Counted from the first letter of the stretch, positions 1 through 12,647 are shown. The stretch is 64,000 bases of DNA from Escherichia coli (GCF_050320075.1 NZ_CP190018.1); one strand, 5' to 3'. A program made the numbers and translations. The notes: generated from the letters alone by a model not told the origin.

Positions 1-510
1 ACTGTCTTGATCACCAGTTTCGATGAGCAATCCCAGCGGCGTAACATTATGGCAGCCGCCTGGTCAATGCCGGTGGAGTTTGAACCGCCACGCGTGGCGA
101 TTGTGGTAGATAAATCGACATGGACCAGGGAGTTGATTGAACGTAATGGTAAGTTTGGCATCGTTATCCCGGGTGTTGCAGCAACTAACTGGACGTGGGC
201 GGTGGGAAGTGTGTCGGGGCGTGATGAAGATAAGTTTAATTGCTATGGTATTCCGGTTGTGAAAGGTCCGGTGCTTGGTTTGCCGCTGGTCGAGGAAAAA
301 TGTCTGGCGTGGATGGAGTGTCGCCTGCTACCTGCAACTTCCGCGCAAGAAAAATACGATACGCTATTTGGCGAAGTGGTATCTGCAGCGGCAGACGCAC
401 GAGTATTTGTCGAAGGCCGCTGGCAGTTTGATGATGACAAACTCAATACGTTGCATCATTTAGGTGCTGGCACGTTTGTTACCAGCGGCAAGCGTGTTAC
501 GGCAGGTTAA
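1..510 (+). CDS. yddH: flavin reductase-like protein; 5' end probably lies outside the window (first in-window Met at 7)
   Basis: Frame is open from base 1; flavin-reductase-like sequence; convergent with pptA as at the K-12 pptA-yddH locus. Confidence 0.6.
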   Translation, partial: TVLITSFDEQSQRRNIMAAAWSMPVEFEPPRVAIVVDKSTWTRELIERNGKFGIVIPGVAATNWTWAVGSVSGRDEDKFNCYGIPVVKGPVLGLPLVEEKCLAWMECRLLPATSAQEKYDTLFGEVVSAAADARVFVEGRWQFDDDKLNTLHHLGAGTFVTSGKRVTAG

Positions 511-513
511 GCA

Positions 514-741
514 TTACATGCTGTAACCGGGTTTCTTTATCAAAGCCTCCATTTGGGGCGCGATTTCGGCATCCCAGATAGCTTGCCAAGATTCTGGTTG
601 AATCTGCTGTAGAGAAATGCTTATCGAGCTATCTTTACTGTTCAGATGGCGAATAATAACGTCGGTAATATCTGCAGCAAGTGCTGCTTTTTGTTGTTCG
701 TCCAGTTCACGCGGAAAACATTTAATGTCTATGTGCGGCAT
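514..741 (-). CDS. pptA: 4-oxalocrotonate tautomerase family protein (75 aa, starts Met-Pro)
   Basis: ORF 514..780 trimmed to internal ATG at 739..741, preceded by AAGGAG Shine-Dalgarno; [11 protein letters not shown]-terminus typical of tautomerases. Confidence 0.85.
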
Positions 742-1046
742 GATTGTGCTCCTTTTGAAAGATGTCAGTAAAATTAACACACGTTGTGAATGTCGTGTGT
801 CCGGTAATGCGTTTTTACGGCAATAATGCCTACTTGAAATTGTACATATTTGTACTACACACTTTTAAATAAAGCGCCAATGAAAACGTTAACTTGCAGA
901 ATATATTCTTCGCCAACATGCCATTAAGAAAACATCAATTTCCCGGCTTGCCAATTTGTTAACGCCCATTATAGTTATTCTTGCCCTCACTAAAAATTTT
1001 CATCCGTAATTACCCCCAATAAAAATCCATTCTGGAGACGCTTAAG

Positions 1047-3023
1047 ATGCAGCTTAATCATATCGTTAAAAGTCTGCTAATAACGGGATTATTCACCACC
1101 AGTTCTTTACCTCTCCTCGCGGCGGAAGCTCCTAAAGACGCCACCGCAGCCACGCAACAAGCAAACAATTTACTCTACAACCAGTTGCCGTTTGCCGATA
1201 ACACTGACTTTACTGATGCCCATAAAGGTTTTATTGCCCCTATCCCTCAAGACGTGATTAAGGGCGAACAAGGGAATGTTATCTGGGATCCACAACATTA
1301 CGCTTTTATCAAAGAAGGCGATAAAGCCCCTGATACGGTGAATCCGAGTTTATGGCGTCAGGCGCAACTGATAAATATCAGCGGGTTATTCGAAGTAACT
1401 GAAGGTGTCTATCAGATTCGCAATCTCGATCTATCAAATATGACCATCATTGAAGGCAAAGAGGGTATTACCGTCGTTGATCCCCTTGTTTCAGCAGAAA
1501 CAGCCAAAGTGGGTATGGATCTCTATTACAAAAATCGCGGCAAAAAACCGGTAGTGGCGGTTATCTATACACACAGTCATGTCGATCACTACGGTGGTGT
1601 TCGTGGCGTAATTGATGAAGCTGACGTTAAATCAGGCAAAGTTAAAATCTATGCGCCAGCCGGATTTTTGGAGGAAGCCGTTTCCGAAAACATCATGGCT
1701 GGCAATGTTATGAGCCGACGAGCCAGTTATATGTATGGCAACTTATTGAAACCTGATGTTAAAGGCCAGGTGGGGGCTGGACTGGGAACGACTACTTCAG
1801 CAGGAACAGTCACGTTGATTGCTCCTACTAACTACATCACCAAAACCGGACAAATAGAAACTATTGACGGGTTGACTTATGATTTCCTGATGGCGCCAGG
1901 TTCTGAAGCGCCTTCTGAAATGCTGTGGTTTATTGAAGAAAAGAAACTGATCGAAACCGCTGAAGATGTCACGCACACCCTTCATAACACCTATTCGCTG
2001 CGTGGGGCTAAAATTCGCCAACCGCTGCCGTGGTCAAAATATATTAATGAAGCTCTCAATTTGTGGGGTGATAAAGCCGAGATTATTCTCGCTCAACATC
2101 ACTGGCCAACCTGGGGCAACGATAACGTGGTCAAACTGCTTAAAAGCCAGCGTGATTTGTATCGTTACATCAATGATCAAACTCTGCGCATGGCTAATCA
2201 AGGGATGACCCGTGATGAAATTGCCGCAAACTTTAAACTGCCCTCTTCACTGGCTAACACCTGGGCGAATCGCGGCTATTACGGTTCGGTAAGTCATGAC
2301 GTGAAAGCAACTTACGTGCTTTATCTCGGCTGGTTTGATGGTAACCCCGCGACGCTTGATGAACTGCCGCCAGAAGAAGGCGCAAAAAAATTCGTCGAGT
2401 ATATGGGCGGTGCTGATGCCATTTTACAGAAAGCCACACAGGATTATGACCAGGGTAATTTCCGCTGGGTTGCCCAAGTTGTTAGTAAGGTGGTGTTTGC
2501 CGATCCAAACAACCAGGCAGCGAGAGATCTGGAAGCTGATGCGCTTGAGCAGTTAGGCTATCAGGCTGAATCTGGGCCGTGGCGTAATTTCTATCTCACT
2601 GGTGCACAGGAATTGCGTAATGGCGTACAAAAATTACCAACACCAAATACTGCCAGCCCAGACACCGTGCGTGCGATGACGCCGGAGATGTTCTTTGATT
2701 ATCTTGCCGTCCATATTAATGGTGAGAAAGCGGCAGATGCCAAAACCGTGTTGAATTTCGATTTTGGTGAAGATGGCGGCACCTATAAAGTGGAGCTTGA
2801 AAATGGTGTTCTCAATCATACCGCTGGTGTAGAGGCTTCGGATGCTGATGCCACTATCACTCTGTCTCGTGATGTATTGAACAAAATTGTACTGAAAGAA
2901 GAGACGCTGAAAGAAGCCACGGCCAAAGGAGATGTCAAAATTACTGGCAATGAGGAAAAACTCAACGAGCTGTTAGGTTATATGGATAATTTTGAATTTT
3001 GGTTCAATATAGTGACACCATAA
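1047..3023 (+). CDS. alkyl/aryl-sulfatase, metallo-beta-lactamase fold (YjcS/BDS1-like), with N-terminal signal peptide
   Basis: 658 aa; signal peptide MQLNHIVKSLLITGLFTTSSLPLLAAEA; HSHVDHYGG metal-binding motif; GGAG Shine-Dalgarno upstream. Confidence 0.8.
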   Translation: MQLNHIVKSLLITGLFTTSSLPLLAAEAPKDATAATQQANNLLYNQLPFADNTDFTDAHKGFIAPIPQDVIKGEQGNVIWDPQHYAFIKEGDKAPDTVNPSLWRQAQLINISGLFEVTEGVYQIRNLDLSNMTIIEGKEGITVVDPLVSAETAKVGMDLYYKNRGKKPVVAVIYTHSHVDHYGGVRGVIDEADVKSGKVKIYAPAGFLEEAVSENIMAGNVMSRRASYMYGNLLKPDVKGQVGAGLGTTTSAGTVTLIAPTNYITKTGQIETIDGLTYDFLMAPGSEAPSEMLWFIEEKKLIETAEDVTHTLHNTYSLRGAKIRQPLPWSKYINEALNLWGDKAEIILAQHHWPTWGNDNVVKLLKSQRDLYRYINDQTLRMANQGMTRDEIAANFKLPSSLANTWANRGYYGSVSHDVKATYVLYLGWFDGNPATLDELPPEEGAKKFVEYMGGADAILQKATQDYDQGNFRWVAQVVSKVVFADPNNQAARDLEADALEQLGYQAESGPWRNFYLTGAQELRNGVQKLPTPNTASPDTVRAMTPEMFFDYLAVHINGEKAADAKTVLNFDFGEDGGTYKVELENGVLNHTAGVEASDADATITLSRDVLNKIVLKEETLKEATAKGDVKITGNEEKLNELLGYMDNFEFWFNIVTP

Positions 3024-3035
3024 ATTTACTGCATA

Positions 3036-3062
3036 CCGGGCAGGTATCCTGCCCTTTTTTGG
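3036..3062 (+). terminator. rho-independent terminator after the sulfatase gene
   Basis: GC hairpin GGGCAGG-TATC-CTGCCC followed by a T run. Confidence 0.5.
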
Positions 3063-3069
3063 TTAAAAA

Positions 3070-4167
3070 ATGGCTGAACGAAGAAAAACTCATCACTCAT
3101 GGAAAACCCGCCGCGATATGGTTATTCGCGGCATGACGATTAGTTTGCCATGGTTTGCTTTTATCAATGTCAGTTTTGCATTGATAATTTTGCTGCGCCG
3201 TGTTCTGTTTAATGACCTTACTCCACCCTGGTTAAATGAAAAAAGCCTTATACATTCTATTGATATATCTGCAACGGGTATTCTGCTGATTTGCAGTGGT
3301 TTACTACTCATCCCTCGGCAAAAAACATTACCTATCCAGGTGCTATTAGTTGCCCTGAGCCTGCTATGGTCATGGTGTAGTTATCACTTTATTGCGTACT
3401 GGACGCTGCAGTTTGCTTATCCACTATGTGTATTATTAATGCTTAGTGGCGTTGTCGCACTTTATTTCCATACCCCATCATTGCTCGCATTTGTCATTCC
3501 CTTATGGTTCACCACTCCAATAGCGAGTCTTATGCTTAATCAACAGATCAATATTCATTTTGCTGTTGTATGGTGTATTTTTTCACTGGCGCTATATGGT
3601 GGGCGACTCATTTTGTTACGTTGGTTTGAAGAAGCATGGGTACAAAACAGTTATAACAACCAGTTAATTAATCGCCTTGATGCATTAGCACATCGTGATC
3701 CTTTAACTGGGATAGCAAACCGACGTGCAATGAACAGTATCTTACACGACGCGATGGATAACGGCGGGTCATTTGCTCTTATTATGCTGGATGTCGATTT
3801 TTTTAAACGTTACAACGACACTTACGGGCATCCTGCTGGGGATCGTTGTCTAATACAAGTTGCCGACGCTCTACAGCGTTCAACTCGCCAGTCGGAGGAT
3901 GTTGTTGTCCGTTATGGTGGCGAAGAGTTTGCCATCATACTTTTTAATGCAACATTGCCGGAAGCAGAGACGGTAGCAGCCAGAGTGAAGCAAGAACTTA
4001 AACTGGCAGCTATCCCACATCAGGCATCTGCTGTTAATGCATTTGTTACGGTTAGTCAGGGGATTACCTGTTCTGCTCCCGCAAAAACGGCTGAACAAAT
4101 TATTTCAGATGCCGACGCTGCGTTATACCGGGCGAAAGAAAGTGGGCGAAATCGATGGGCTTTATAA
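3070..4167 (+). CDS. membrane-anchored diguanylate cyclase (GGDEF domain, GGEEF active-site motif); start codon uncertain
   Basis: Hydrophobic multi-helix N-terminal half; C-terminal GGDEF domain with RYGGEEF and DxLTG-like motifs. Confidence 0.8.
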   Translation: MAERRKTHHSWKTRRDMVIRGMTISLPWFAFINVSFALIILLRRVLFNDLTPPWLNEKSLIHSIDISATGILLICSGLLLIPRQKTLPIQVLLVALSLLWSWCSYHFIAYWTLQFAYPLCVLLMLSGVVALYFHTPSLLAFVIPLWFTTPIASLMLNQQINIHFAVVWCIFSLALYGGRLILLRWFEEAWVQNSYNNQLINRLDALAHRDPLTGIANRRAMNSILHDAMDNGGSFALIMLDVDFFKRYNDTYGHPAGDRCLIQVADALQRSTRQSEDVVVRYGGEEFAIILFNATLPEAETVAARVKQELKLAAIPHQASAVNAFVTVSQGITCSAPAKTAEQIISDADAALYRAKESGRNRWAL

Positions 4168-4240
4168 GCATTAGGGGACTGGACAGATTACGTCTCTCCT
4201 CGCTTAACAAGGGCTGACGGAGGGTAATAATTGTCTATAG

Positions 4241-4792
4241 CTATCTTCTTAGCGATGTCTTTCTGGTATCACATTGGATCGGTGCAATTATTTTTCCTTT
4301 AATACCCATTATGTTAAGAAATTCAGAAACAGCTGTAATCTCATTGTTTTTTTCATTCGTCTTGATCTTCCAAGGAATCTGACTGTGCATTATTGAGAAC
4401 ACACTAATAACGTGAATCGCTCCCTTGCGACGACTCTTGTCATAAGAGTACCGGAGCGTTTTTCCATCAATTGCAATGACGTCTTTATCATCTGAAGAAT
4501 GGCAGTCAAGCATCCAGTTAATAAAGCACTCATAAAATTTTTCAGGACTGATACAGGATACAACTCTGGCAATGGTATCGTGAACAGGAATACCATTATC
4601 AAAATCACCATATTGCTTCAAAAAATCGAGATGTGTTTCCCCAAAATCCTCTATATCTTCCCAGCCTTCTGCACCCGAAATAACGGCACAAATAGTCAAC
4701 AGTAGAATATCCGATAATTTATGTTCCACTTTCCAGGCTTGTCTGTAATCGGGGATAATAGAAATATGTCCCATCAATTTTTTAAGTTCCAT
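4241..4792 (-). pseudogene. H-repeat-associated (ISAs1-family transposase-like) gene remnant, N-terminal ~183 codons only
   Basis: Aligns to the first half of the 378-codon H-rpt frame at 10493..11629, then diverges and stops. Confidence 0.7.
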
Positions 4793-4939
4793 TTTGTTCT
4801 CCTTAATTATGTAAGGAGTATTTGATCATGTATACGCAATAAAAAACAGCTTCAGGTAATGAGGAATATCTCAATTGTTAAACATAAAATGCGAATTGTC
4901 TAGTACAAAAAAGCAGCGTTACGTGATCTTTCCGTGGAT

Positions 4940-5065
4940 CGTCAAATTGTTCGAGAGAAAATACCAACATGATGGATTTTACTGTAAAAGTAATGTCGTA
5001 GTTTAAAAACTCATCATCCGGTAAAGCCTTGTGGGGCGTGGGCTTTCATACTTTTACCCTGATGT
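4940..5065 (-). repeat. H-rpt element upstream-end repeat, copy A
   Basis: About 120 bp closely similar to 11680..11810, each just upstream of an H-rpt reading frame. Confidence 0.6.
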
Positions 5066-5377
5066 CTGCTATACGCCGGACACCCTTTACGTAGCATTCG
5101 GAATTCACCCGTAAATTTATCACGGCGGTATCACGAAACCTCCGGTTCTGATGCCGCTTAGGACTAACGACACGTCAACACAGGTTCGGGTTTATTCATT
5201 TCACTGTATCTCATATAATCTGAGCACTCCCCCTGCGCTCGCTACTATGACTCTTTACCACAGCAACCGGGGTTGTTTGGGATCGGCTTTCAACAGCAGA
5301 TCCCGGTGGCTATTGCAAGTAAGTCTACTTTCCACATCAGTGTTACTGACACAGAAAATAATGAGTTATGATCCTTG

Positions 5378-5863
5378 TCATATTTTTAATATAGCCCCAT
5401 GAGCTATAGGATCAAAACCTTCTAACCATGAGGTGTTTTTATCGAATAATGCATCTGTTATATTTATATCGCCATATCTATCACATAATAAATTAGCGCC
5501 ACATAAGTCAGCACCAGAAAAATTTGAATCTTTAACGTCTGCATTGCAAAAGGTTGAATTAGTTAATATAGCACCCTCAAAGTTTGCACCTATTGACCTT
5601 GAATTACTAAAGTCACTTCCAGTGAAATCTGAGTTATTAAGAATAGCGTTCATCAGAGCCGCATTGCGAAAGACAGCATTTCTAGTTGATGTATGTTGAA
5701 TCATTACATTTCTTAAATGGGAATTTTCAAATTTCGCCCCATCAAGACAATAACCATTGAGGATGGCACGATGTAGATCCATCCCGCTAAAATCATATCC
5801 AGCAAGAGTGGTACTATCTATATCAAGAAATTTATTGGTTATTAAAAACGCGATTCTTATCAT
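5378..5863 (-). CDS. pentapeptide-repeat protein, putative immunity protein for the adjacent Rhs C-terminal toxin
   Basis: 161 aa with tandem A(D/N)LxG/F-type pentapeptide repeats; its start overlaps the Rhs stop by 4 bp (ATGA); AT-rich. Confidence 0.75.
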
Positions 5864-8800
5864 CTATTCCCCCAATCATCTAACTCCGGAAAAATTTGGC
5901 TAAACGGATATAGTGGTGCCGATAATGGACGCGTACCTGGCCGCTCAGGAGGAAGTTTATCACATAACAGACCCGCAACCATCCTGTGATTACCATTAAC
6001 AATCACATTCCCATCCATATCAACCGGTGGTGCTCCACTACCATCTTCCAGCATTTGTACGTAGTGAGCTACTACGGGTACTGAGACTTTTTGTTGTACT
6101 GTCAACAAGGGACTGTTGGCCACAACCATCCTGATGTTTTCAGGTGTCGTAGGTAAACATTTAGTCTTCTCTTGACTAAAGGTATCATCCCACAATTTTG
6201 TTAAACCCATCACTGCCTGTTGTCTGTATTTATCCATGGGGTCAGCAATCAACCAAGATGGACCTGACTGCTCTATGGAATCTTCTCCGGAGAGACCCAA
6301 CGGATCTATCTTAGTAGTTGGATTCAATGGATACTGATACAGGTTCCATGCACCTCTTAGCCCAATGGGATCCTGGGTGATATACCGCCCCTGCAACGGG
6401 TCATAGTACCGGTTGCGGTTATAGTACAGCCCCGACTCCTCATCATACTGCTGCCCCGGCAGACGGTACGGCTGTTGCAGTTGCTGCGCGCTGGTTTCGC
6501 CCAGCAGGTTTCCCCACTCGTCATACTCCCCCTGCCACGCCGTTTCCCCTTCCGGGCTGATGAGCGCCTGCGGCAGCCCCCGGTGGTCGCAGTGGTAAAG
6601 ATGAAGTGTCCTCTCCGGGATGTATTCCGCCTCCATCTGGTTTTTCATCTGTTCCGCCGTCAGCCCGCACTGCTGAAGCCATGCCTCACTCTCCGCACTC
6701 ACCGCACCCGCGCGCAGTTCCCGCTCCAGCCTCCCCAGCATCACCGACAGCTCCGCCGGTAGCGTCACCCCCGTGTCCTCCTGCAACACCTCCGCCAGAC
6801 TCCGGTGCCGCGCCTTCGCCTGTTCACCATTCTCTGTTTCGATTCTGATGAGCGGCGTGAAGCTCCCCGGCTGGTATACCGTCTGGATACGCGTGGTGCC
6901 GGTCTGTACCGTCGTCAGCCTGTCACCGTCCCACCCGTACCAGGTCTCCTCCGGTTTACGCGACAGCGACATCCACCCCGTCAGGTCACGCTCCCGCCGC
7001 CACACCCGTTTCCCCGTCCGGCGGCCCAGCGGGTCATAGAGGTAGCGGCTCTCCACCTGTGGCTCGCCGTGCTGTATCCGCGTGTAGAACACCAGGCGGT
7101 GCTGGCTGTCGTAATGGTAGTGGTGCGTCCGCTCGTCGTGCATCCGTATCACCCCTTCCGGGATACGGTCCGTCTTCTCCGCCAGCCTGCCGTATTCATC
7201 GTAGCGGTAGACATAGTGCGCATCTTCCGTGATGCGGTTATCCGGCCACGCCGTGAAGGTGCTGTCCGGGTGCAGTTCCGGGTCCGGCAGCCGGTTTCCT
7301 GCCGGGTCCGTCGCATACGGGATATCGATATCCAGGTTCGCCGCCGTGGTGTGAACGCCCGTCAGTCTTCCCGTGTCGCTGTAACGGTACTTCCGGCTCT
7401 CCTGCGGGCCGCTGATGCGCACCAGTTGCCCGTTATCGTTCCACGTATACTCACGGTCAAGCTGCGGAAGGTTCAGGTGCCTGCTCCGGAGCTGCCCTGT
7501 GAGGGTGTACGCCGTGGCCTGTTCGTACCCCGCTGTACTGCCCGCCCCGCCGAAGCTGCGGGCCGTCTCACGGTGCAGCCGGTCCCGCGTGTACTCGACC
7601 AGCGGCGTTCCGCCCAGCTTCATCCCCGCAAGATAACCGCTGCCATACGTCAGCCACTCCACCGGCGGCAGACCGTCCGGCTCCTGACGGGTCGCCAGCC
7701 CCTGTTCGCTGTAGACGTGCCTCGTCTCATGCTCCCACAGCATCTCCCCCGTCTCCTGGTTCTCCACCGTCTGCCGTTCGCCCGTCAGGCGGCCTTTATC
7801 GTCATAGCCGTAGTGGACCGCCACACGGTGGCCTTCGCTCAGGTGGCTGATTTCTGTCAGCCAGCCGTGGTCGTCATACTGCCACTGCTCCGCCGGGTCG
7901 CCGTTCACCGTCCGGTGCGTGATGCGCCCGGCGTCATCGTAGTACCACTGCGTGACCTGCCCCTCATCCTCGCTGCGGATGAGCTGCCCTGTGGCGCTGT
8001 ACCGGTAACGCTGTGTCCTGCCGTCAAAGCCGCGCTGCTCCGTCAGCCTGTCCACCGGGTCATACCGGAACGTGGACTGGCTGCCGTTCTCGTTGGTCAG
8101 CACGGTGATGCGCCCGGCGGCGTCATACTCCATGCTGCGCGTCAGTCCGCCCTGCGTGGTGCTGACGGCCTTTCCCCACGCATCATACTGTGTCTCACTC
8201 CGGCTGCCGTTCGGGGCAATGATAGCGGTGAGGTCGCCTGCGGCGCTGTACTCATAACGGGTTTCACGTCCCTGCGCATCCTTCTGACTGACCAGTTGAC
8301 CACGCGGGTTATAACTGCTGTAAGTGCTGATGCCTTCCTCCCGGTGAACCGCCGTCCTCTGACCGTACCGGTCGTATTCATACCGCGTCGTGTACCCTGA
8401 ACAGTCCGTAAATGCCTGAAGCTGACCGTACCGGTTTCGCGTTATTCTCCGCCTCACCCCGGTTCCGTCTTCCACCGCACAGGGCAGGCCACTGCGGGAA
8501 GAATCATAAAACCAGCGCGTAATGTTACCGTTGCGCGAGACCTCTTCCGCCAGCCTGCCCTGACGGTCATATTTCCGGCTGCGGCGCAGCCCGTCCGGGT
8601 ACGTCACTGACGTCAGTTGCAACTGGTTGTTGTAACCATACCGTACCGTCCTGCCGTCCGGCAGTATCACTGAAGTCAGCTTTCCCGACGCCATATGCAG
8701 CCGGTACTCCGTCCGCCGTCCCGCCGCATCCGTCTGCGCCTTCAGCCTCCCCGCCTCATCATACTCGCTGCGGGTGATGCTCCCGTCCCCATACTCCTTC

Positions 8801-10071
8801 TTCACCACCCGCTTCAGGCCGCCCTCGCCCTCCGTGTACAGCACCTCCCGCCGGTTCAGGCTGTCCGTGATGGTCACGCGGTCCTGCCCGTACTCAAAGC
8901 GGTAGTCCAGCCCCTCCGGGTTGACCTGCTCCGTCACCCGACCGGTATCATCATACCGGTAGCGGCTCTCCGGCCTCCCCGCATAATGGTGCGCCACCAT
9001 CCGCCCGGCGTGCTCCGCATCATAAGTAAACCCGCGCACCTGCGTCCCGCTGCGGTCATACACCGCCCGCAGTTCTCCGCTGGCCGTGTACGTGTAGCGC
9101 GCCAGCGGCGCAGTCGGCAGTTCATCCGGGTATGCCGGGTCGTGTGTCAGCCATACCGCCTCCAGCCGGATACCGTTATCGGCACCGTACTCTGTACCGG
9201 TGGGCAGCGTGTCGGGGAAAAACTGAGAAGAGGAAACAGAACGGGGACTGGCCGGAGAAGATAAAGAAGACTCGCGCTGTTTACGGAAGGCTTTCGCCCG
9301 CTGCGCCTGTGTGGTCAGCGCCAGATGAAAACGGCGGCCCGCGCCGTCCGTCACCCCCGTCACCGCGCCCGCCGCTTCCCCCTCTGCCGCCCGGTGGAAG
9401 GCCAGCGTCCGCCCGAAGCCGTCCACCACGCCCGTCAGCACCCGGTATGCGGGCGGCTCCGGCGGCAGCACCTCGTCCGCCTCCGGCACCCGCTCCGGCC
9501 AGCCGAGTATCCACCACGGCCCCTGAAGGCTGTTTGTCGCCAGGTACACATGCGGGCTTAAGCGGAGACTCTCCGGCAGCACCTGCCAGAGCGCGCTTAG
9601 CGGCTGCGAACTGTGCTGCTCCGCCACCCCGCCCCTTGCCAGCCAGAACGACTCGCTGCGGCTGTAGCTTATCTCGCCGGGAAACAGCGGCTCAAAGTGA
9701 ATGCTCCTGCCGCCACTGTCGTTGAGTATCAGTTCCCGCTCATGAACCTGTAAGCGGATATCGAAGGGCGCTTTCCAGCCGGGACCAAACACCCCCACCG
9801 GCGCGGGTGTCCTGGTCCGGTAGCTGCTGTAGGCGCGGGAAAGAATAAACGGCAACGGGCCGGGCAGCGCAAGATCCGTCTCGCCCGGCAGCACCTTCGC
9901 ACCCAGTAGCGGGTTCACCGGGTTACCCTTCTGCTCCTCCACCGGGCTGTTGGGACACACCGAGCAGGCCACTCCCGTCGGCGCACCTATCAGCACCCCC
10001 GCTGAACCCTGCACAATATCCAGTCCCTTGCGGGTCATATCGCCCTGTCGCGCCGCCGGTTTTCCGCTCAT
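5860..10071 (-). CDS. full-length Rhs family protein: PAAR-like N-terminus, YD-repeat core, DPLGL boundary, variable C-terminal toxin domain
   Basis: 1403 aa; conserved Rhs N-terminus [13 protein letters not shown]; many YD/RYxYD repeats; PxxxxDPLGL motif; GC-rich core. Confidence 0.9.
5863..6291 (-). other. Rhs C-terminal variable toxin domain (~143 aa after DPLGL), family not recognised
   Basis: Sequence after the DPLGL motif is unrelated to the conserved core and lower in GC. Confidence 0.6.
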
Positions 10072-10492
10072 GGTTTATTCCTTAAATTATTTATGGTTTT
10101 ATTCTGAGTGCAATCCATACTGATTCATAACCAGTGAATAAGATTTCCCCGAATAATCTATATAAATTAGCGAAGTCCTCTTCACTAATTAACCGTAAAA
10201 TCCCGTACCAATGAAATATAAAAATAACCACCCACACAAATTTATTGCAAATATTATTTATTATTGTATATACATCATTCACTGAACGTTCTCAAACTGC
10301 ATACCTTAGAACCATCAATTAAAGCCACAACAAAAAAAATCGATTACTTTATGTCGCATGACAAATATGAATTACATATTAATCAACCTTAAAAACAATC
10401 ATCTCTTATAATTAACAGCATACCATGAGAAACACAAAATCAATTTACCATGCATACCAGGAGCATAATTAACCTCTCACCGCAGGGCGAAA

Positions 10493-11629
10493 TCATGAAG
10501 GCCCGCAGCCAGCAAGGATTAGAGAAAGGTATTCATTCTTACGTCCTGCCCGCTTTTGCTTGCGTTTAATACCCGCTTTAAAGCTATTCTCTGCGGTCAG
10601 TAAATTCATCGCGATATGTCGACAAACTGCCAGATTTTCTCCCGCTTCTCCACGAACAATCTGGCATTCATCTTCCCGCATCCCCATATCAAGTCGCCAG
10701 TGCAGTTGATTTTCTACCGACCAGTGTGCTCGTGTTGCTTCCAGGAGTTCTTTCGCCGTAAGCGTCACCGAACTTATGTAGTAGCGAAGAATACACTTCT
10801 CTGATTTCACCGCTGTTTCTCCTTCCTGTCTGCTCGCCAGCACTATTCCTATCGTGCTCAGCTCTGACCATTCATAAGCTAAATCACCCAGAGCGGTTAA
10901 ATCATGGCTCACAATGCAGCATCGTGTATCTTCCCGTCCATGCCCTTTTTCCTGCGTGCTGTAACTGTCATACCTCTCACCCAGCCACATTGTCGGCGAG
11001 TACCCGTTATCAAACGCCTCCGCTAATTTTCCCTGATTTCCTTTCAGCGCCAGCAGGTAACCGGCTTTCTTTTTCAGAATTTCACGGGCGATTATATGCT
11101 GGCAACCCATTGCATCCAGCGTGACCAGACACCCTTTTAATTCCAGCAACTGGAGCCGTTCCGGGATCGCCGTTATCTCATTCGATTTTGCCCCTGTTTT
11201 CACCTGCCCCAAAACCAGACGATTTTCTGCGCTAAAAGCACTGACCCTATGGATCACGGCATTACGTTTCGATTTATCGTAAGTACCCCGTAATGACTTA
11301 CCATCAATCGCCACAACAGAGCCTTCAGACAACGTGTGACAGTCCTTCATCTACTGGATAAAAAGGGGCTGTAATTGTTTTGCTGAAATCATTCCCATCA
11401 CTCGGGCAATCGTGTGATGGGAGGGGGTGCCATTTTCAAAATCACCATACAGGCGTAACCATTCCAGATGCTCCTCACCAAAATCAGCAATTTCTTCCCA
11501 TCCTTCAGCGCCACCGATAATGGCGGTGATCGTCAGAAAAAGGATATCCGCCAGGCTGTAACTGGTTTTCCAGGACTGGCGATAATCGTGAATAATTGAA
11601 ATTTGATCCAAAAGGCTTAGTCCGTTCAT
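10493..11629 (-). pseudogene. H-repeat-associated protein (ISAs1-family transposase-like), 378 codons interrupted by an in-frame TAG at 11351..11353
   Basis: ORFs 11351..11629 and 10493..11350 are contiguous in one frame, separated only by TAG; the fragment at 4241..4792 has W at that position. Confidence 0.7.
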
Positions 11630-11679
11630 GGTGTGCTATCCATCAAAAAGAAAGGATAAGATCACACTGAAATAAGATG

Positions 11680-11810
11680 GTCAAATTGATCGAAAAAAAA
11701 GATCAACATGATGGGTTTTACGATAAAAGTAATGTCGCGATTTAAAAATTCATCATTCACCAAAGTCTTGTGGGGCGCGGGCTTTCATGCTTTTTCCCTG
11801 ATACGCTACC
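11680..11810 (-). repeat. H-rpt element upstream-end repeat, copy B
   Basis: Closely similar to 4940..5065. Confidence 0.6.
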
Positions 11811-12040
11811 GCTCTGCCCTGATAACATGATCTGCACGGCGCTATCATATCGACATATTTCTCTACATGCGAAAGGATGTTTTATTTTCGGATTATATTA
11901 AATTGATATTTCATATAAAAAACGAGATTACATAAATCATATAAATAATTGTACCAACTTTAATTACCATTCATAGCAAACAAATGGATGTCCAGTTAAC
12001 TACGCCAGTGATTTATTAACATTAATCTCCGGCATTATTG

Positions 12041-12647
12041 TTAAATAATGGCATTCCTTTTTAGTATTTCTTGTAACGTTGGTATCGGACATACAGCATC
12101 AGCAATCGCACTGATATTCGCGGCATTATCTTGAAACCATTCATGCCCCGGTCCCCATATGCGCATAACGCAGAGATAAGGGTAGCTGATCGCCAAACGC
12201 ATAAGGTTCAGCAGTGAGCTACGAATTCAACCAGATATAAAACGATTTTCGATATTCAATAACATTCTTCTTTAACTGTTCGGGTGCGTCAGGAGCCCAA
12301 CGCTCAGGGTAATCGGCGAAAGTGAATGTTGGATAGACATTAGCAACCAGCCAGACCAATAGCCGTTGAAACTGCTGACGTTCGGCGCGCCCAACCGGTG
12401 GCGCAAGGTCCGGGCGACGATCGAGAACCATCAATGCAATCGCCGCTGTCTCCGTCATAATCTCGTCATTTTCCAGCGCCAGTGTCGGAATCTGACACAA
12501 CGGGTTCAGGGTTTTCAATAACTCGCGTGAGGTTCCCTCGTGGTCAAAACCACTGACATCAACGAACTGATAAGGAATATCAGCCAGTGTTAGCATCAGC
12601 TCACTGATTGTAGAGCCCCATCCGGGTACGCCATACACCTTAATCAT
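12041..12647 (-). pseudogene. yncG: glutathione S-transferase homologue, disrupted by an in-frame TAG (12219..12221) and a downstream frameshift
   Basis: 142-aa N-terminal GST-like ORF ends at TAG; the GST C-terminal remnant CVMRIWGPGHEWFQDNAANISAIADAV continues in another frame to a stop near 12041. Confidence 0.6.

What the first reader, a model, noticed from the sequence alone, without database searches (positions are those of the whole stretch)
1047..4167. Accessory alkyl-sulfatase plus membrane diguanylate cyclase module between the Rhs locus and pptA
A secreted 658-aa MBL-fold alkyl/aryl sulfatase and a 365-aa membrane GGDEF protein with an intact GGEEF motif lie between the H-rpt remnant and pptA. 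From memory, K-12 has neither gene at this position. Pairing a sulfate-ester hydrolase with a c-di-GMP synthase hints at a substrate-linked biofilm or motility switch, but the two genes are separated by a terminator and may be unrelated.
Basis: partly seen in the sequence, partly recalled or inferred. Interest (0 to 1): 0.5.

Follow-up and report, generated by a model that had tools for sequence, protein, structure and literature searches.

The report
Known dgcY–alkylsulfatase gene pair
This stretch holds two intact genes, a periplasmic detergent-type alkyl-sulfatase and the membrane c-di-GMP synthase already named DgcY, that are an old Escherichia gene pair lost from most E. coli; the pair is already catalogued, but nobody has tested what it does.

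Summary
Both ORFs are real and sit at the stated coordinates. ORF 1047-3023 is an SdsA1-type MBL-fold alkylsulfatase with a signal peptide. ORF 3070-4167 is a six-TM MASE5-GGDEF diguanylate cyclase with all catalytic motifs but no canonical RxxD I-site.

K-12 lacks both genes; only about 438 of 5426 complete E. coli genomes carry them, and always together.

The module is not new. The cyclase is DgcY, and the pair was reported in strains SMS-3-5 and CE10 (Povolotsky & Hengge 2016, as cited by the SalmoNet2 preprint). It is not DgcX.

It is also not an acquired island. The order yddH-pptA-sulfatase-dgcY recurs in the three other Escherichia lineages whose flanks I could read. Divergence from E. 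marmotae is high and similar for both genes, and both are under purifying selection. SMS-3-5 has the pair next to yncG with no Rhs element. In this window a 7.9-kb Rhs/H-rpt element sits beside dgcY. In K-12 and ECONIH1, H-rpt copies replace the pair at two different breakpoints.

The pairing looks non-random. The same sulfatase adjoins a MASE5-GGDEF gene at another locus in Enterobacter and, divergently, inside a Salmonella lambdoid prophage. Either gene also occurs alone.

A functional link, perhaps amphiphile-responsive c-di-GMP signalling, is plausible but untested.

The parts
514..741 (-). pptA (tautomerase), the conserved left flank of the module
   Evidence: NCBIfam NF002324 at 1.8e-46. 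The RefSeq annotation of the 99.98%-identical strain CFSAN061763 agrees (window coordinate = L001 coordinate minus 7954).
742..1046 (.). pptA-sulfatase intergenic region, holding a sigma-70-like site (TTGCCA-16-TATAGT) at 948-975 (+). K-12 homology ends at 830, where its H-rpt copy begins.
   Evidence: Consensus scan, which is a pattern match only. Breakpoints come from blastn.
1047..3023 (+). Periplasmic type III (MBL-fold, SdsA1-family) alkylsulfatase, 658 aa. It is a paralogue of K-12 YjcS (49% identity).
   Evidence: Pfam domains. PDB sequence matches 7tl5, 4nur (PSdsA), 4pdx (YjcS) and 2cfu (SdsA1). The HxHxDH motif (H176, H178, D180, H181) is invariant in alignment A2. dN/dS is 0.03-0.06.
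3038..3064 (+). Intrinsic terminator hairpin plus T-run directly after the sulfatase stop codon. The long-form dgcY ATG follows 6 nt later.
   Evidence: A hairpin follows the sulfatase stop in all twelve loci examined.
3070..4167 (+). dgcY: a MASE5-GGDEF diguanylate cyclase of 365 aa (alternative PGAP start at 3118). It has six TM helices, a stalk helix and a GGDEF domain, with GGEEF at residues 283-287 and RxxxD in place of the RxxD I-site.
   Evidence: It is 360/365 identical to the SMS-3-5 protein next to EcSMS35_1714. dN/dS is 0.15-0.20.
4160..12040 (.). A 7.9-kb Rhs/H-rpt element inserted between dgcY and yncG relative to SMS-3-5 (context, not part of the module). It contains an H-rpt remnant (4242-4911), a pentapeptide-repeat ORF (5378-5863), an Rhs core gene (5860-10071) and a second ISAs1 pseudogene (about 10493-11629).
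   Evidence: blastn against SMS-3-5, annotation of CFSAN061763 and NCBIfam.

Best explanation
SHOWN. The segment is the dgcY locus. It holds a gene for a Sec-exported, binuclear-zinc, SdsA1-type primary alkylsulfatase, that gene's own terminator, and then dgcY. DgcY is an inner-membrane diguanylate cyclase. Its sensor is a six-helix MASE5 bundle with no periplasmic domain, joined by a continuous helix to a catalytically complete GGDEF domain.

The pair is an ancestral Escherichia chromosomal segment (nhoA-yddH-pptA-sulfatase-dgcY-yncG). About 8% of complete E. coli genomes keep it. An Rhs/H-rpt element inserted beside dgcY, which is the state seen in this window. In lineages such as K-12 and ECONIH1, H-rpt/ISAs1 copies now replace the pair at two different breakpoints.

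INFERRED. The two genes form a co-selected, probably co-regulated unit rather than chance neighbours. The sulfatase cleaves long-chain alkyl sulfate esters in the periplasm. DgcY is expressed from the same upstream region, by terminator read-through in the tandem arrangement or from a shared divergent control region in Salmonella. It raises c-di-GMP in response to a membrane-borne cue.

My best guess for the cue is the amphiphilic substrate or its fatty-alcohol product. That would favour aggregation or biofilm during detergent-like stress, analogous to SDS-induced, SiaD-dependent aggregation in Pseudomonas aeruginosa.

My probabilities are: gene identities about 0.97; ancestral origin with Rhs/H-rpt-linked loss about 0.9; any functional or regulatory coupling about 0.45; amphiphile sensing by MASE5 about 0.2.
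For: Identity. Pfam, NCBIfam and PDB matches support both gene assignments. The invariant Zn motif and all GGDEF catalytic and substrate-binding residues are present: D241, D243, K246, N249, D250, G253, H254, G257, D258, R281-F287, D349, K356, R360. The AF2 model has pLDDT 84.5, with six TM helices, loops of 3-11 residues, and TM6 continuing into the GGDEF domain.

Name. The SalmoNet2 preprint equates the Salmonella gene yreP with E. coli dgcY, lying next to EcSMS35_1714. SMS-3-5 has the same two genes at this locus.

Ancestry. The order yddH-pptA-sulfatase-dgcY recurs on contigs of the DgcY clusters whose named members are E. marmotae and E. whittamii. The adjacent sulfatase-dgcY pair was read on a contig of the unnamed-Escherichia cluster. 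An E. ruysiae cluster was identified by protein identity only, without context. dS against E. marmotae is similar for both genes (0.82 and 0.89), with dN/dS of 0.03-0.2. Citrobacter koseri keeps only dgcY and C. sedlakii only the sulfatase, at the same yddH...yncG site.

Loss. H-rpt/ISAs1 copies sit at two different breakpoints, window position 830 in K-12 and 1116 in ECONIH1. About 90 of the 528 matching genomes carry less than 80% of the query; the five such rows shown are 62-70-bp remnants of the sulfatase 5' end.

Linkage. In E. coli the two genes are present or absent together (436 versus 438 genomes). Enterobacter contigs have tynA-sulfatase-MASE5 DGC-feaB, whereas E. cloacae has tynA-DGC-feaB. 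A Salmonella lambdoid prophage carries the pair divergently. L158 has the cyclase 2.8 kb away. Serratia fonticola has a GAF-GGDEF gene directly upstream of the sulfatase. By contrast, only 1 of 68 loci with distant sulfatase homologues has any GGDEF gene.

In the Salmonella pair the cyclase is Hafnia-like (77%) while the sulfatase is closest to Enterobacter and S. fonticola (91%). This suggests the pairing was assembled more than once.

Precedent. SDS triggers SiaD- and c-di-GMP-dependent aggregation in P. aeruginosa (PMC4768041).
Against: A strong terminator separates the genes, and a hairpin follows the sulfatase stop even where no cyclase follows. It is therefore the sulfatase's own terminator.

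The cyclase sits just after an upstream terminator whatever the upstream gene is: yddH in C. koseri, tynA in E. cloacae. In E. cloacae the spacer contains a good promoter-like TTGATG-N17-TATAGT. Co-transcription with the sulfatase is therefore not required.

Each gene occurs without the other in several lineages. About 18 other sulfatase contexts have no GGDEF gene, and many of those are prophage cargo.

The contexts are not phylogenetically independent, so my rough chance estimate (about 1% per context for a GGDEF neighbour) overstates significance.

No expression or activity data exist for DgcY or this sulfatase. MASE5 has no known ligand. The closest solved architecture, ImcA (six TM helices plus GGDEF), is regulated by a partner protein rather than a small amphiphile.
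Confidence: 0.5

Rival explanations
1. The genes are unrelated neighbours. The sulfatase is a stand-alone, monocistronic sulfur- or carbon-scavenging or detergent-detoxifying enzyme. DgcY is an independently regulated sensor cyclase. Their adjacency in Escherichia and Enterobacter is inherited history, and the Salmonella and Serratia cases are coincidence or hitch-hiking of adjacent DNA.
For: A terminator lies between the genes, and a hairpin follows the sulfatase stop in every lineage. Each gene occurs alone at the very same locus in Citrobacter species. The cyclase occurs alone in E. cloacae and Hafnia. Most sulfatase contexts lack a GGDEF gene. The E. cloacae spacer has its own promoter-like site.
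Against: MASE5-GGDEF genes adjoin the sulfatase in three different flank contexts and in two orientations. A fourth lies within 3 kb, and a different GGDEF type is adjacent in Serratia fonticola. The origins of the two genes in the Salmonella prophage pair are incongruent, which argues for re-assembly rather than simple inheritance. In Escherichia only 46 bp separate the sulfatase stop from the dgcY ATG, and that space is filled by the hairpin.
Confidence: 0.4
2. The pair is a horizontally acquired accessory island brought in with the Rhs/H-rpt element. This is the literal reading of 'accessory module'.
For: The pair is patchily distributed, in 8% of E. coli. GC content is slightly low, at 41-50%. 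It lies next to mobile H-rpt and Rhs DNA. Sulfatase orthologues are frequent prophage cargo elsewhere.
Against: SMS-3-5 and 86 other genomes carry the pair with no Rhs or H-rpt beside it. Synteny is the same in three other Escherichia lineages, and dS against E. marmotae is high and similar for both genes. Citrobacter species have one gene or the other at the same site. Strains lacking the pair keep a 62-70-bp stump of the sulfatase gene, which indicates deletion rather than non-acquisition.
Confidence: 0.05
3. DgcY is catalytically dead or acts only as a c-di-GMP receptor or scaffold, like CdgI/YeaI.
For: No biochemical data exist for DgcY. The literature held here reports function only for DgcX, PdeY and PdeT among the non-K-12 proteins. 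The canonical RxxD I-site is shifted to RxxxD.
Against: GGEEF and every conserved catalytic, metal-binding and GTP-binding position are invariant across 72 homologues. dN/dS is 0.15-0.20. A degenerate I-site removes product inhibition, not catalysis.
Confidence: 0.05

Closest known systems
DgcY (yreP) plus the adjacent alkylsulfatase EcSMS35_1714 of E. coli SMS-3-5 and CE10 (Povolotsky & Hengge 2016, as reported in the SalmoNet2 preprint 10.1101/2021.12.20.473597)
   Same: It is the same locus, gene order and proteins. DgcY is 360/365 identical and the sulfatase 646/658 identical to SMS-3-5.
   Different: In this window a 7.9-kb Rhs/H-rpt element is inserted between dgcY and yncG, and the homology breakpoint changes the last two codons of dgcY. 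I could not read the original 2016 paper, which is not held.
DgcX, the accessory E. coli diguanylate cyclase of EAEC/O104:H4 (PMC4287979)
   Same: It is also a non-K-12, membrane-anchored GGDEF cyclase with an intact GGEEF motif and patchy distribution.
   Different: DgcX has a MASE4 domain of about 270 aa and an intact RxxD I-site, places GGEEF at about residues 357-361, and always sits beside lambdoid prophage DNA. The protein here has MASE5, is 365 aa, lacks RxxD and is at a chromosomal ancestral site.
SdsA1 (P. aeruginosa), PSdsA (Pseudomonas sp. S9) and YjcS (E. coli K-12): type III MBL-fold alkylsulfatases
   Same: It has the same three-domain architecture (MBL domain, dimerisation domain and SCP2-like C-terminal domain), the HxHxDH zinc motif and a signal peptide.
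   Different: It is only 49% identical to K-12 YjcS and sits at a different locus. It belongs to a highly conserved enterobacterial orthogroup (84-92% identity across genera) that is often prophage-borne. Its substrate has not been tested.
The SiaABCD/SiaD response to SDS in Pseudomonas aeruginosa (PMC4768041)
   Same: It gives a conceptual precedent: an alkyl-sulfate detergent raises c-di-GMP through a dedicated cyclase and causes protective aggregation, in an organism that also degrades SDS with SdsA1.
   Different: SiaD is a soluble cyclase controlled by a phosphatase, kinase and partner-switch module, and it is not linked to sdsA1. The resemblance here is a hypothesis drawn from gene linkage only.
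ImcA of P. aeruginosa (PDB 8wcn; PMC10904736)
   Same: It is the best structural match to the whole-protein model: a six-TM domain directly fused to GGDEF, of about 379 aa.
   Different: The TM-score is only 0.40 and identity 23%. ImcA is regulated through contact with the iron-sensing protein IsmP. Homology of the TM domains is not established.

Membership tests
Type III (MBL-fold, SdsA1-family) alkylsulfatase | N-terminal metallo-beta-lactamase domain with the binuclear-zinc motif HxHxDH | tested here: met
   Pfam Lactamase_B at 1.1e-16. T175-H176-S177-H178-x-D180-H181-Y-G-G is invariant in 16 sequences, including YjcS.
Type III (MBL-fold, SdsA1-family) alkylsulfatase | Alkyl-sulfatase dimerisation domain plus SCP2-like C-terminal domain | tested here: met
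   PF14863 at 3.3e-62 and PF14864 at 3.1e-44. Full-length matches to 2cfu, 4nur, 4pdx and 7tl5.
Type III (MBL-fold, SdsA1-family) alkylsulfatase | Export to the periplasm (signal peptide) | tested here: met
   Sequence-level evidence only. The N-terminus has a K8 n-region, a hydrophobic core and an LLA|AE cleavage-like site. Solved homologues start at query residues 26-29.
Type III (MBL-fold, SdsA1-family) alkylsulfatase | Hydrolysis of primary alkyl sulfates such as SDS | not testable with these tools
   This needs an enzyme assay. It is inferred from homology only.
DgcY (MASE5-GGDEF diguanylate cyclase of non-K-12 E. coli) | MASE5 membrane domain followed by a GGDEF domain | tested here: met
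   PF17178 at 7.5e-44 and PF00990 at 1.9e-48. Six TM helices appear in the hydropathy profile and the AF2 model.
DgcY (MASE5-GGDEF diguanylate cyclase of non-K-12 E. coli) | Same gene as in reference strain SMS-3-5, adjacent to sulfatase EcSMS35_1714 | tested here: met
   SMS-3-5 has pptA-sulfatase-GGDEF-yncG at 1,720,718-1,724,988. The protein is 360/365 identical.
Active diguanylate cyclase (GGDEF A-site) | Intact GG(D/E)EF and conserved metal- and GTP-binding residues | tested here: met
   GGEEF lies at 283-287. D241, D243, K246, N249, D250, H254, D258, K356 and R360 are invariant in 72 homologues.
Active diguanylate cyclase (GGDEF A-site) | c-di-GMP synthesis in vitro or in vivo | not testable with these tools
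   No experimental data were found for DgcY in the held literature.
Product-inhibited DGC (I-site type) | RxxD motif five residues upstream of GGDEF | tested here: not met
   The sequence is R273-Q-S-E-D277-VVVRY-GGEEF, so the arginine is one position too far (RxxxD). The same holds in all aligned homologues.
DgcX | MASE4 domain, about 450 aa, adjacent to lambdoid prophage DNA at attB or another prophage site | tested here: not met
   This protein has MASE5 rather than MASE4, is 365 aa, and has no prophage at this locus.
Two-gene operon (sulfatase-dgcY) | Co-transcription from one promoter | tested here: inconclusive
   The genes are on the same strand with a 46-bp gap, and no sigma-70-like site was found between the terminator and the ATG. 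A strong terminator intervenes, however, and no transcript data are available.

The most novel reading that the evidence does not exclude
The MASE5 domain may be a membrane-embedded sensor of amphiphilic sulfate esters or the long-chain alcohols released from them. The sulfatase-DgcY pair would then be a portable 'detergent or sulfated-lipid sensing to c-di-GMP' module. It has been repeatedly kept or re-assembled in Enterobacterales, including on the lambdoid prophage that the SalmoNet2 authors found mainly in typhoidal and other invasive Salmonella serovars. This would give MASE5 its first ligand class. It would also link host or environmental sulfated amphiphiles to biofilm decisions.
Probability: 0.15. 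Interest if true: 0.6.

Novelty: already known. Interest (0 to 1): 0.3.

Why it matters
As gene content this is ordinary. It is a named, catalogued, strain-variable c-di-GMP gene and its neighbour, present in about one complete E. coli genome in twelve.

Two points have some value.

First, the locus is a clean example of how an Rhs/H-rpt element erodes ancestral chromosomal genes. One c-di-GMP enzyme of the E. coli pangenome therefore looks 'accessory' although it was present in the ancestor.

Second, the recurrent linkage of this sulfatase with MASE5-type cyclases, in three genera and on a Salmonella prophage, gives a concrete and cheap hypothesis for the signal sensed by an orphan sensor domain. 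It could be tested with alkyl sulfates or fatty alcohols and a c-di-GMP reporter.

Tried and rejected
DgcX was my first guess. I rejected it after reading PMC4287979 and PMC10459773: DgcX has MASE4, is about 450 aa, and is always prophage-adjacent.

I tried to read Povolotsky & Hengge 2016 and the Hengge et al. nomenclature paper by DOI and by PMC id. Neither is held. The DgcY name therefore rests on the SalmoNet2 preprint's account plus my check of SMS-3-5.

A full-text search for MASE5 gave only two relevant domain tables, for Enterobacter ludwigii and Pantoea.

It yielded only Citrobacter, Enterobacter, Hafnia and Aeromonas loci of use. It says nothing about absence from other Escherichia species.

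The exact-sequence look-up of the Salmonella Typhimurium homologue P0073 found nothing.

The GenBank phage collection holds only one record with the Salmonella sulfatase, and that match does not cover the cyclase.

The Rfam scan of 500-5500 found no riboswitch or sRNA in or around the two genes. It found only a group II intron fragment outside them.

The Foldseek search of the DgcY model mostly returned GGDEF domains, so it is not informative for the MASE5 bundle beyond the weak ImcA match.

I did not determine the phylogroup of the window strain.
Full report
OBSERVATION

The first ORF has the complete domain set of a type III alkylsulfatase: Lactamase_B, Alkyl_sulf_dimr and Alkyl_sulf_C/SCP2. 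Over its full length it matches the solved enzymes 7tl5, PSdsA (4nur), E. coli YjcS (4pdx), Pisa1 and SdsA1 (2cfu). The zinc motif HxHxDH (H176, H178, D180, H181) is invariant in an alignment that includes YjcS, to which the protein is 49% identical. The N-terminus looks like a Sec signal peptide, and the crystallised homologues begin at query residues 26-29.

The second ORF is MASE5 (residues 25-206) plus GGDEF (207-362). GGEEF sits at 283-287. All conserved catalytic, metal-binding and GTP-binding positions are invariant in 72 homologues. The I-site is RxxxD rather than RxxD.

An AlphaFold2 model has mean pLDDT 84.5. It shows six TM helices joined by loops of 3-11 residues, so there is no periplasmic domain. 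TM6 continues as one long helix into the GGDEF domain. Seven Lys/Arg residues in the first 24 positions argue for a cytoplasmic N-terminus.

RefSeq starts the gene at 3118. The upstream 16 codons are, however, conserved in frame, with a K/R-rich stretch and conserved Trp and Arg, in homologues down to about 50% identity.

A canonical terminator (a 7-bp GC stem plus a T-run, 3038-3064) lies between the genes.

DISTRIBUTION IN E. COLI

The whole 3.1-kb module is present in 438 of 5426 complete E. coli genomes. Searched separately, the sulfatase is in 438 genomes and the cyclase in 436, so they are kept or lost together.

K-12 MG1655 lacks both genes. Its similarity to the window ends at position 830, where the H-rpt gene ydcC begins. 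In strain ECONIH1 the similarity runs to position 1116, which is 70 bp into the sulfatase gene, and then meets an ISAs1 element. About 90 of the 528 matching genomes carry less than 80% of the query. The five such rows shown are 62-70-bp remnants of the sulfatase 5' end. These are the footprints of deletions at two different breakpoints.

ALREADY NAMED

The protein is not DgcX. DgcX has a MASE4 domain of about 270 aa and an intact I-site, and it always lies next to lambdoid prophage DNA.

The SalmoNet2 preprint states that yreP ('dgcY in E. coli') and an alkylsulfatase (EcSMS35_1714) 'were first described together' in E. coli SMS-3-5 and CE10, citing Povolotsky & Hengge 2016. I fetched SMS-3-5. 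It has nhoA-yddH-pptA-sulfatase-GGDEF-yncG-ansP, and the GGDEF protein is 360/365 identical to the one here. The module is therefore catalogued.

I found no functional data for DgcY. A 2017 paper lists proven function only for DgcX, PdeY and PdeT among the non-K-12 proteins.

ORIGIN

DgcY relatives fall into several clusters. Named members of those clusters are E. whittamii, unnamed Escherichia spp., E. ruysiae, E. marmotae and Citrobacter koseri. Identities of the cluster representatives to the query are 93, 82, 79, 77 and 65% respectively.

Contigs carrying the 93% and 77% representatives show yddH-pptA-sulfatase-dgcY. The contig carrying the 82% representative shows the adjacent sulfatase-dgcY pair, but it is too short to show flanks. 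I did not retrieve context for the 79% cluster.

Against the E. marmotae-type contig, dS is 0.82 for the sulfatase and 0.89 for dgcY. dN/dS is 0.03 and 0.16 respectively. This indicates long vertical co-inheritance under purifying selection.

At the same yddH...yncG site, C. koseri has only the cyclase and C. sedlakii only the sulfatase. Differential loss from a two-gene ancestor is the simplest reading.

Relative to SMS-3-5, window 4160-12040 is a 7.9-kb insertion. It carries an H-rpt remnant, a pentapeptide-repeat ORF, an Rhs core gene and a second ISAs1 pseudogene. Among the E. coli carriers, 344 have this Rhs-adjacent junction and 87 the SMS-3-5 junction.

The module is therefore 'accessory' only because Rhs/H-rpt-associated deletions removed it from most lineages. 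It is not an acquired island.

IS THE PAIRING MEANINGFUL?

I collected contexts of the sulfatase orthogroup (at least 79% identity). The sources were exact-sequence look-ups, 46 IMG/VR contigs and 80 metagenome contigs. I scanned them with GGDEF and MASE5 HMMs built from my own alignment.

A MASE5-GGDEF gene is the immediate neighbour in three different flank contexts:

- Escherichia, in tandem.
- Enterobacter, in tandem between tynA and feaB. E. cloacae has the same tynA-DGC-feaB site without the sulfatase.
- A Salmonella lambdoid prophage, arranged divergently between the P/DUF977 genes and the NinG/Q genes. About 24 further viral contigs carry the same element.

In addition, one metagenome contig has a MASE5-GGDEF gene 2.8 kb downstream. 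Serratia fonticola has a GAF-GGDEF gene directly upstream of the sulfatase.

About 18 other contexts have no GGDEF gene, and several of these are prophage cargo sites next to baseplate or P-loader genes. Among 68 loci with distant (48-72% identity) sulfatase homologues, only one contains any GGDEF gene.

Roughly 0.5% of enterobacterial genes encode GGDEF domains. That figure is my own estimate from the K-12 inventory quoted in PMC5635171. On that basis, four or five GGDEF neighbours in about 23 contexts is well above chance. The contexts are not independent, however, so this is only indicative.

In the Salmonella pair the cyclase is Hafnia-like (77%), whereas the sulfatase is closest to Enterobacter and S. 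fonticola (91%). This hints that the pairing was assembled more than once.

REGULATION

Only 46 bp separate the sulfatase stop from the long-form dgcY ATG, and the terminator fills that space. No sigma-70-like site was found there. Read-through is a reasonable guess for Escherichia. In Salmonella the two genes share a divergent control region.

Three observations weaken the case. A hairpin follows the sulfatase stop in all twelve loci examined, including those with no downstream cyclase. The cyclase also follows an upstream terminator closely when the upstream gene is yddH or tynA. The E. cloacae spacer holds a good promoter-like site. Transcript organisation is therefore unresolved.

MECHANISM

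I commit to the following. The gene identities and the evolutionary history are shown. The coupling between the two genes is inferred.

A periplasmic alkylsulfatase and a membrane-embedded MASE5 cyclase form a co-selected unit. DgcY raises c-di-GMP in response to a membrane-borne cue, possibly the amphiphilic substrate or its fatty-alcohol product. This would promote aggregation, by analogy with SDS-induced, SiaD-dependent aggregation in P. aeruginosa.

The closest solved architecture is ImcA (six TM helices plus GGDEF; TM-score 0.40). ImcA is controlled by a partner protein. Partner-mediated control is therefore an alternative input for DgcY.

I put about 0.45 on any functional or regulatory coupling and about 0.2 on amphiphile sensing.

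VERDICT

The novelty class is 'already known'. Interest is modest (0.3), resting on an untested but cheap hypothesis for an orphan sensor domain.

Noticed in passing
window 5202-5310 (minus strand), within the unannotated spacer 4912-5377: Rfam RF01999 (group II intron D1-D4-2) matches at 48 bits against a gathering score of 36, E about 1e-7, over the full model length. No adjacent reverse-transcriptase ORF is evident, so it looks like a group II intron fragment inside the Rhs/H-rpt element. The same 466-bp spacer occurs unannotated in 143 complete E. coli genomes.
   Followed up: partly
window 5378-10071 (minus strand): An Rhs core protein gene (5860-10071, 1403 aa) is followed, with a 4-nt overlap, by a 161-aa pentapeptide-repeat ORF (5378-5863). 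This is a candidate Rhs toxin-tip and immunity pair. The C-terminal tip was not analysed.
   Followed up: no
window 4152-4167, compared with L234 12355-12370: The homology breakpoint with SMS-3-5 lies 8 bp before the dgcY stop codon. The protein therefore ends ..RWAL here and ..RWEK in SMS-3-5, where the dgcY and yncG stop codons abut. Insertion or loss of the Rhs element thus altered the last codons of dgcY.
   Followed up: partly
L103/L104 and about 24 IMG/VR loci (L114-L150): In Salmonella the sulfatase and a 376-aa MASE5-GGDEF gene are carried divergently as cargo in the nin region of a lambdoid prophage, between lambda-P/DUF977 and NinG/Q, with a PipA-family gene nearby. The SalmoNet2 preprint reports this segment mainly in typhoidal and other invasive serovars.
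   Followed up: partly
L107-L113, L132-L140 (IMG/VR contigs): Sulfatase orthologues (about 85-87% identical to the query) without a cyclase are recurrent cargo in other prophage types, next to baseplate-assembly or P-like helicase-loader genes. This may explain why the enzyme is 84-87% identical across genera as distant as Serratia and Rahnella.
   Followed up: partly
window 1047-4167 compared with the E. coli genome collection: The sulfatase gene has two allele classes in E. coli: at least 99% identity in 338 genomes and 95-99% (about 97.8% in the rows shown) in 103. dgcY is at least 99% identical in 437 genomes. Against one cryptic Escherichia lineage, dS is 0.20 for the sulfatase but 0.54 for dgcY. 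Both observations point to recombination within the locus.
   Followed up: no
window 12041-12647: In the 99.98%-identical strain CFSAN061763, yncG (glutathione S-transferase), on the far side of the Rhs insertion, is annotated as a frameshifted pseudogene with an internal stop.
   Followed up: no
E. coli genome collection: One of the roughly 440-530 matching places for the module lies on a record classed as a plasmid. I did not inspect it, and it could be a misassigned replicon.
   Followed up: no
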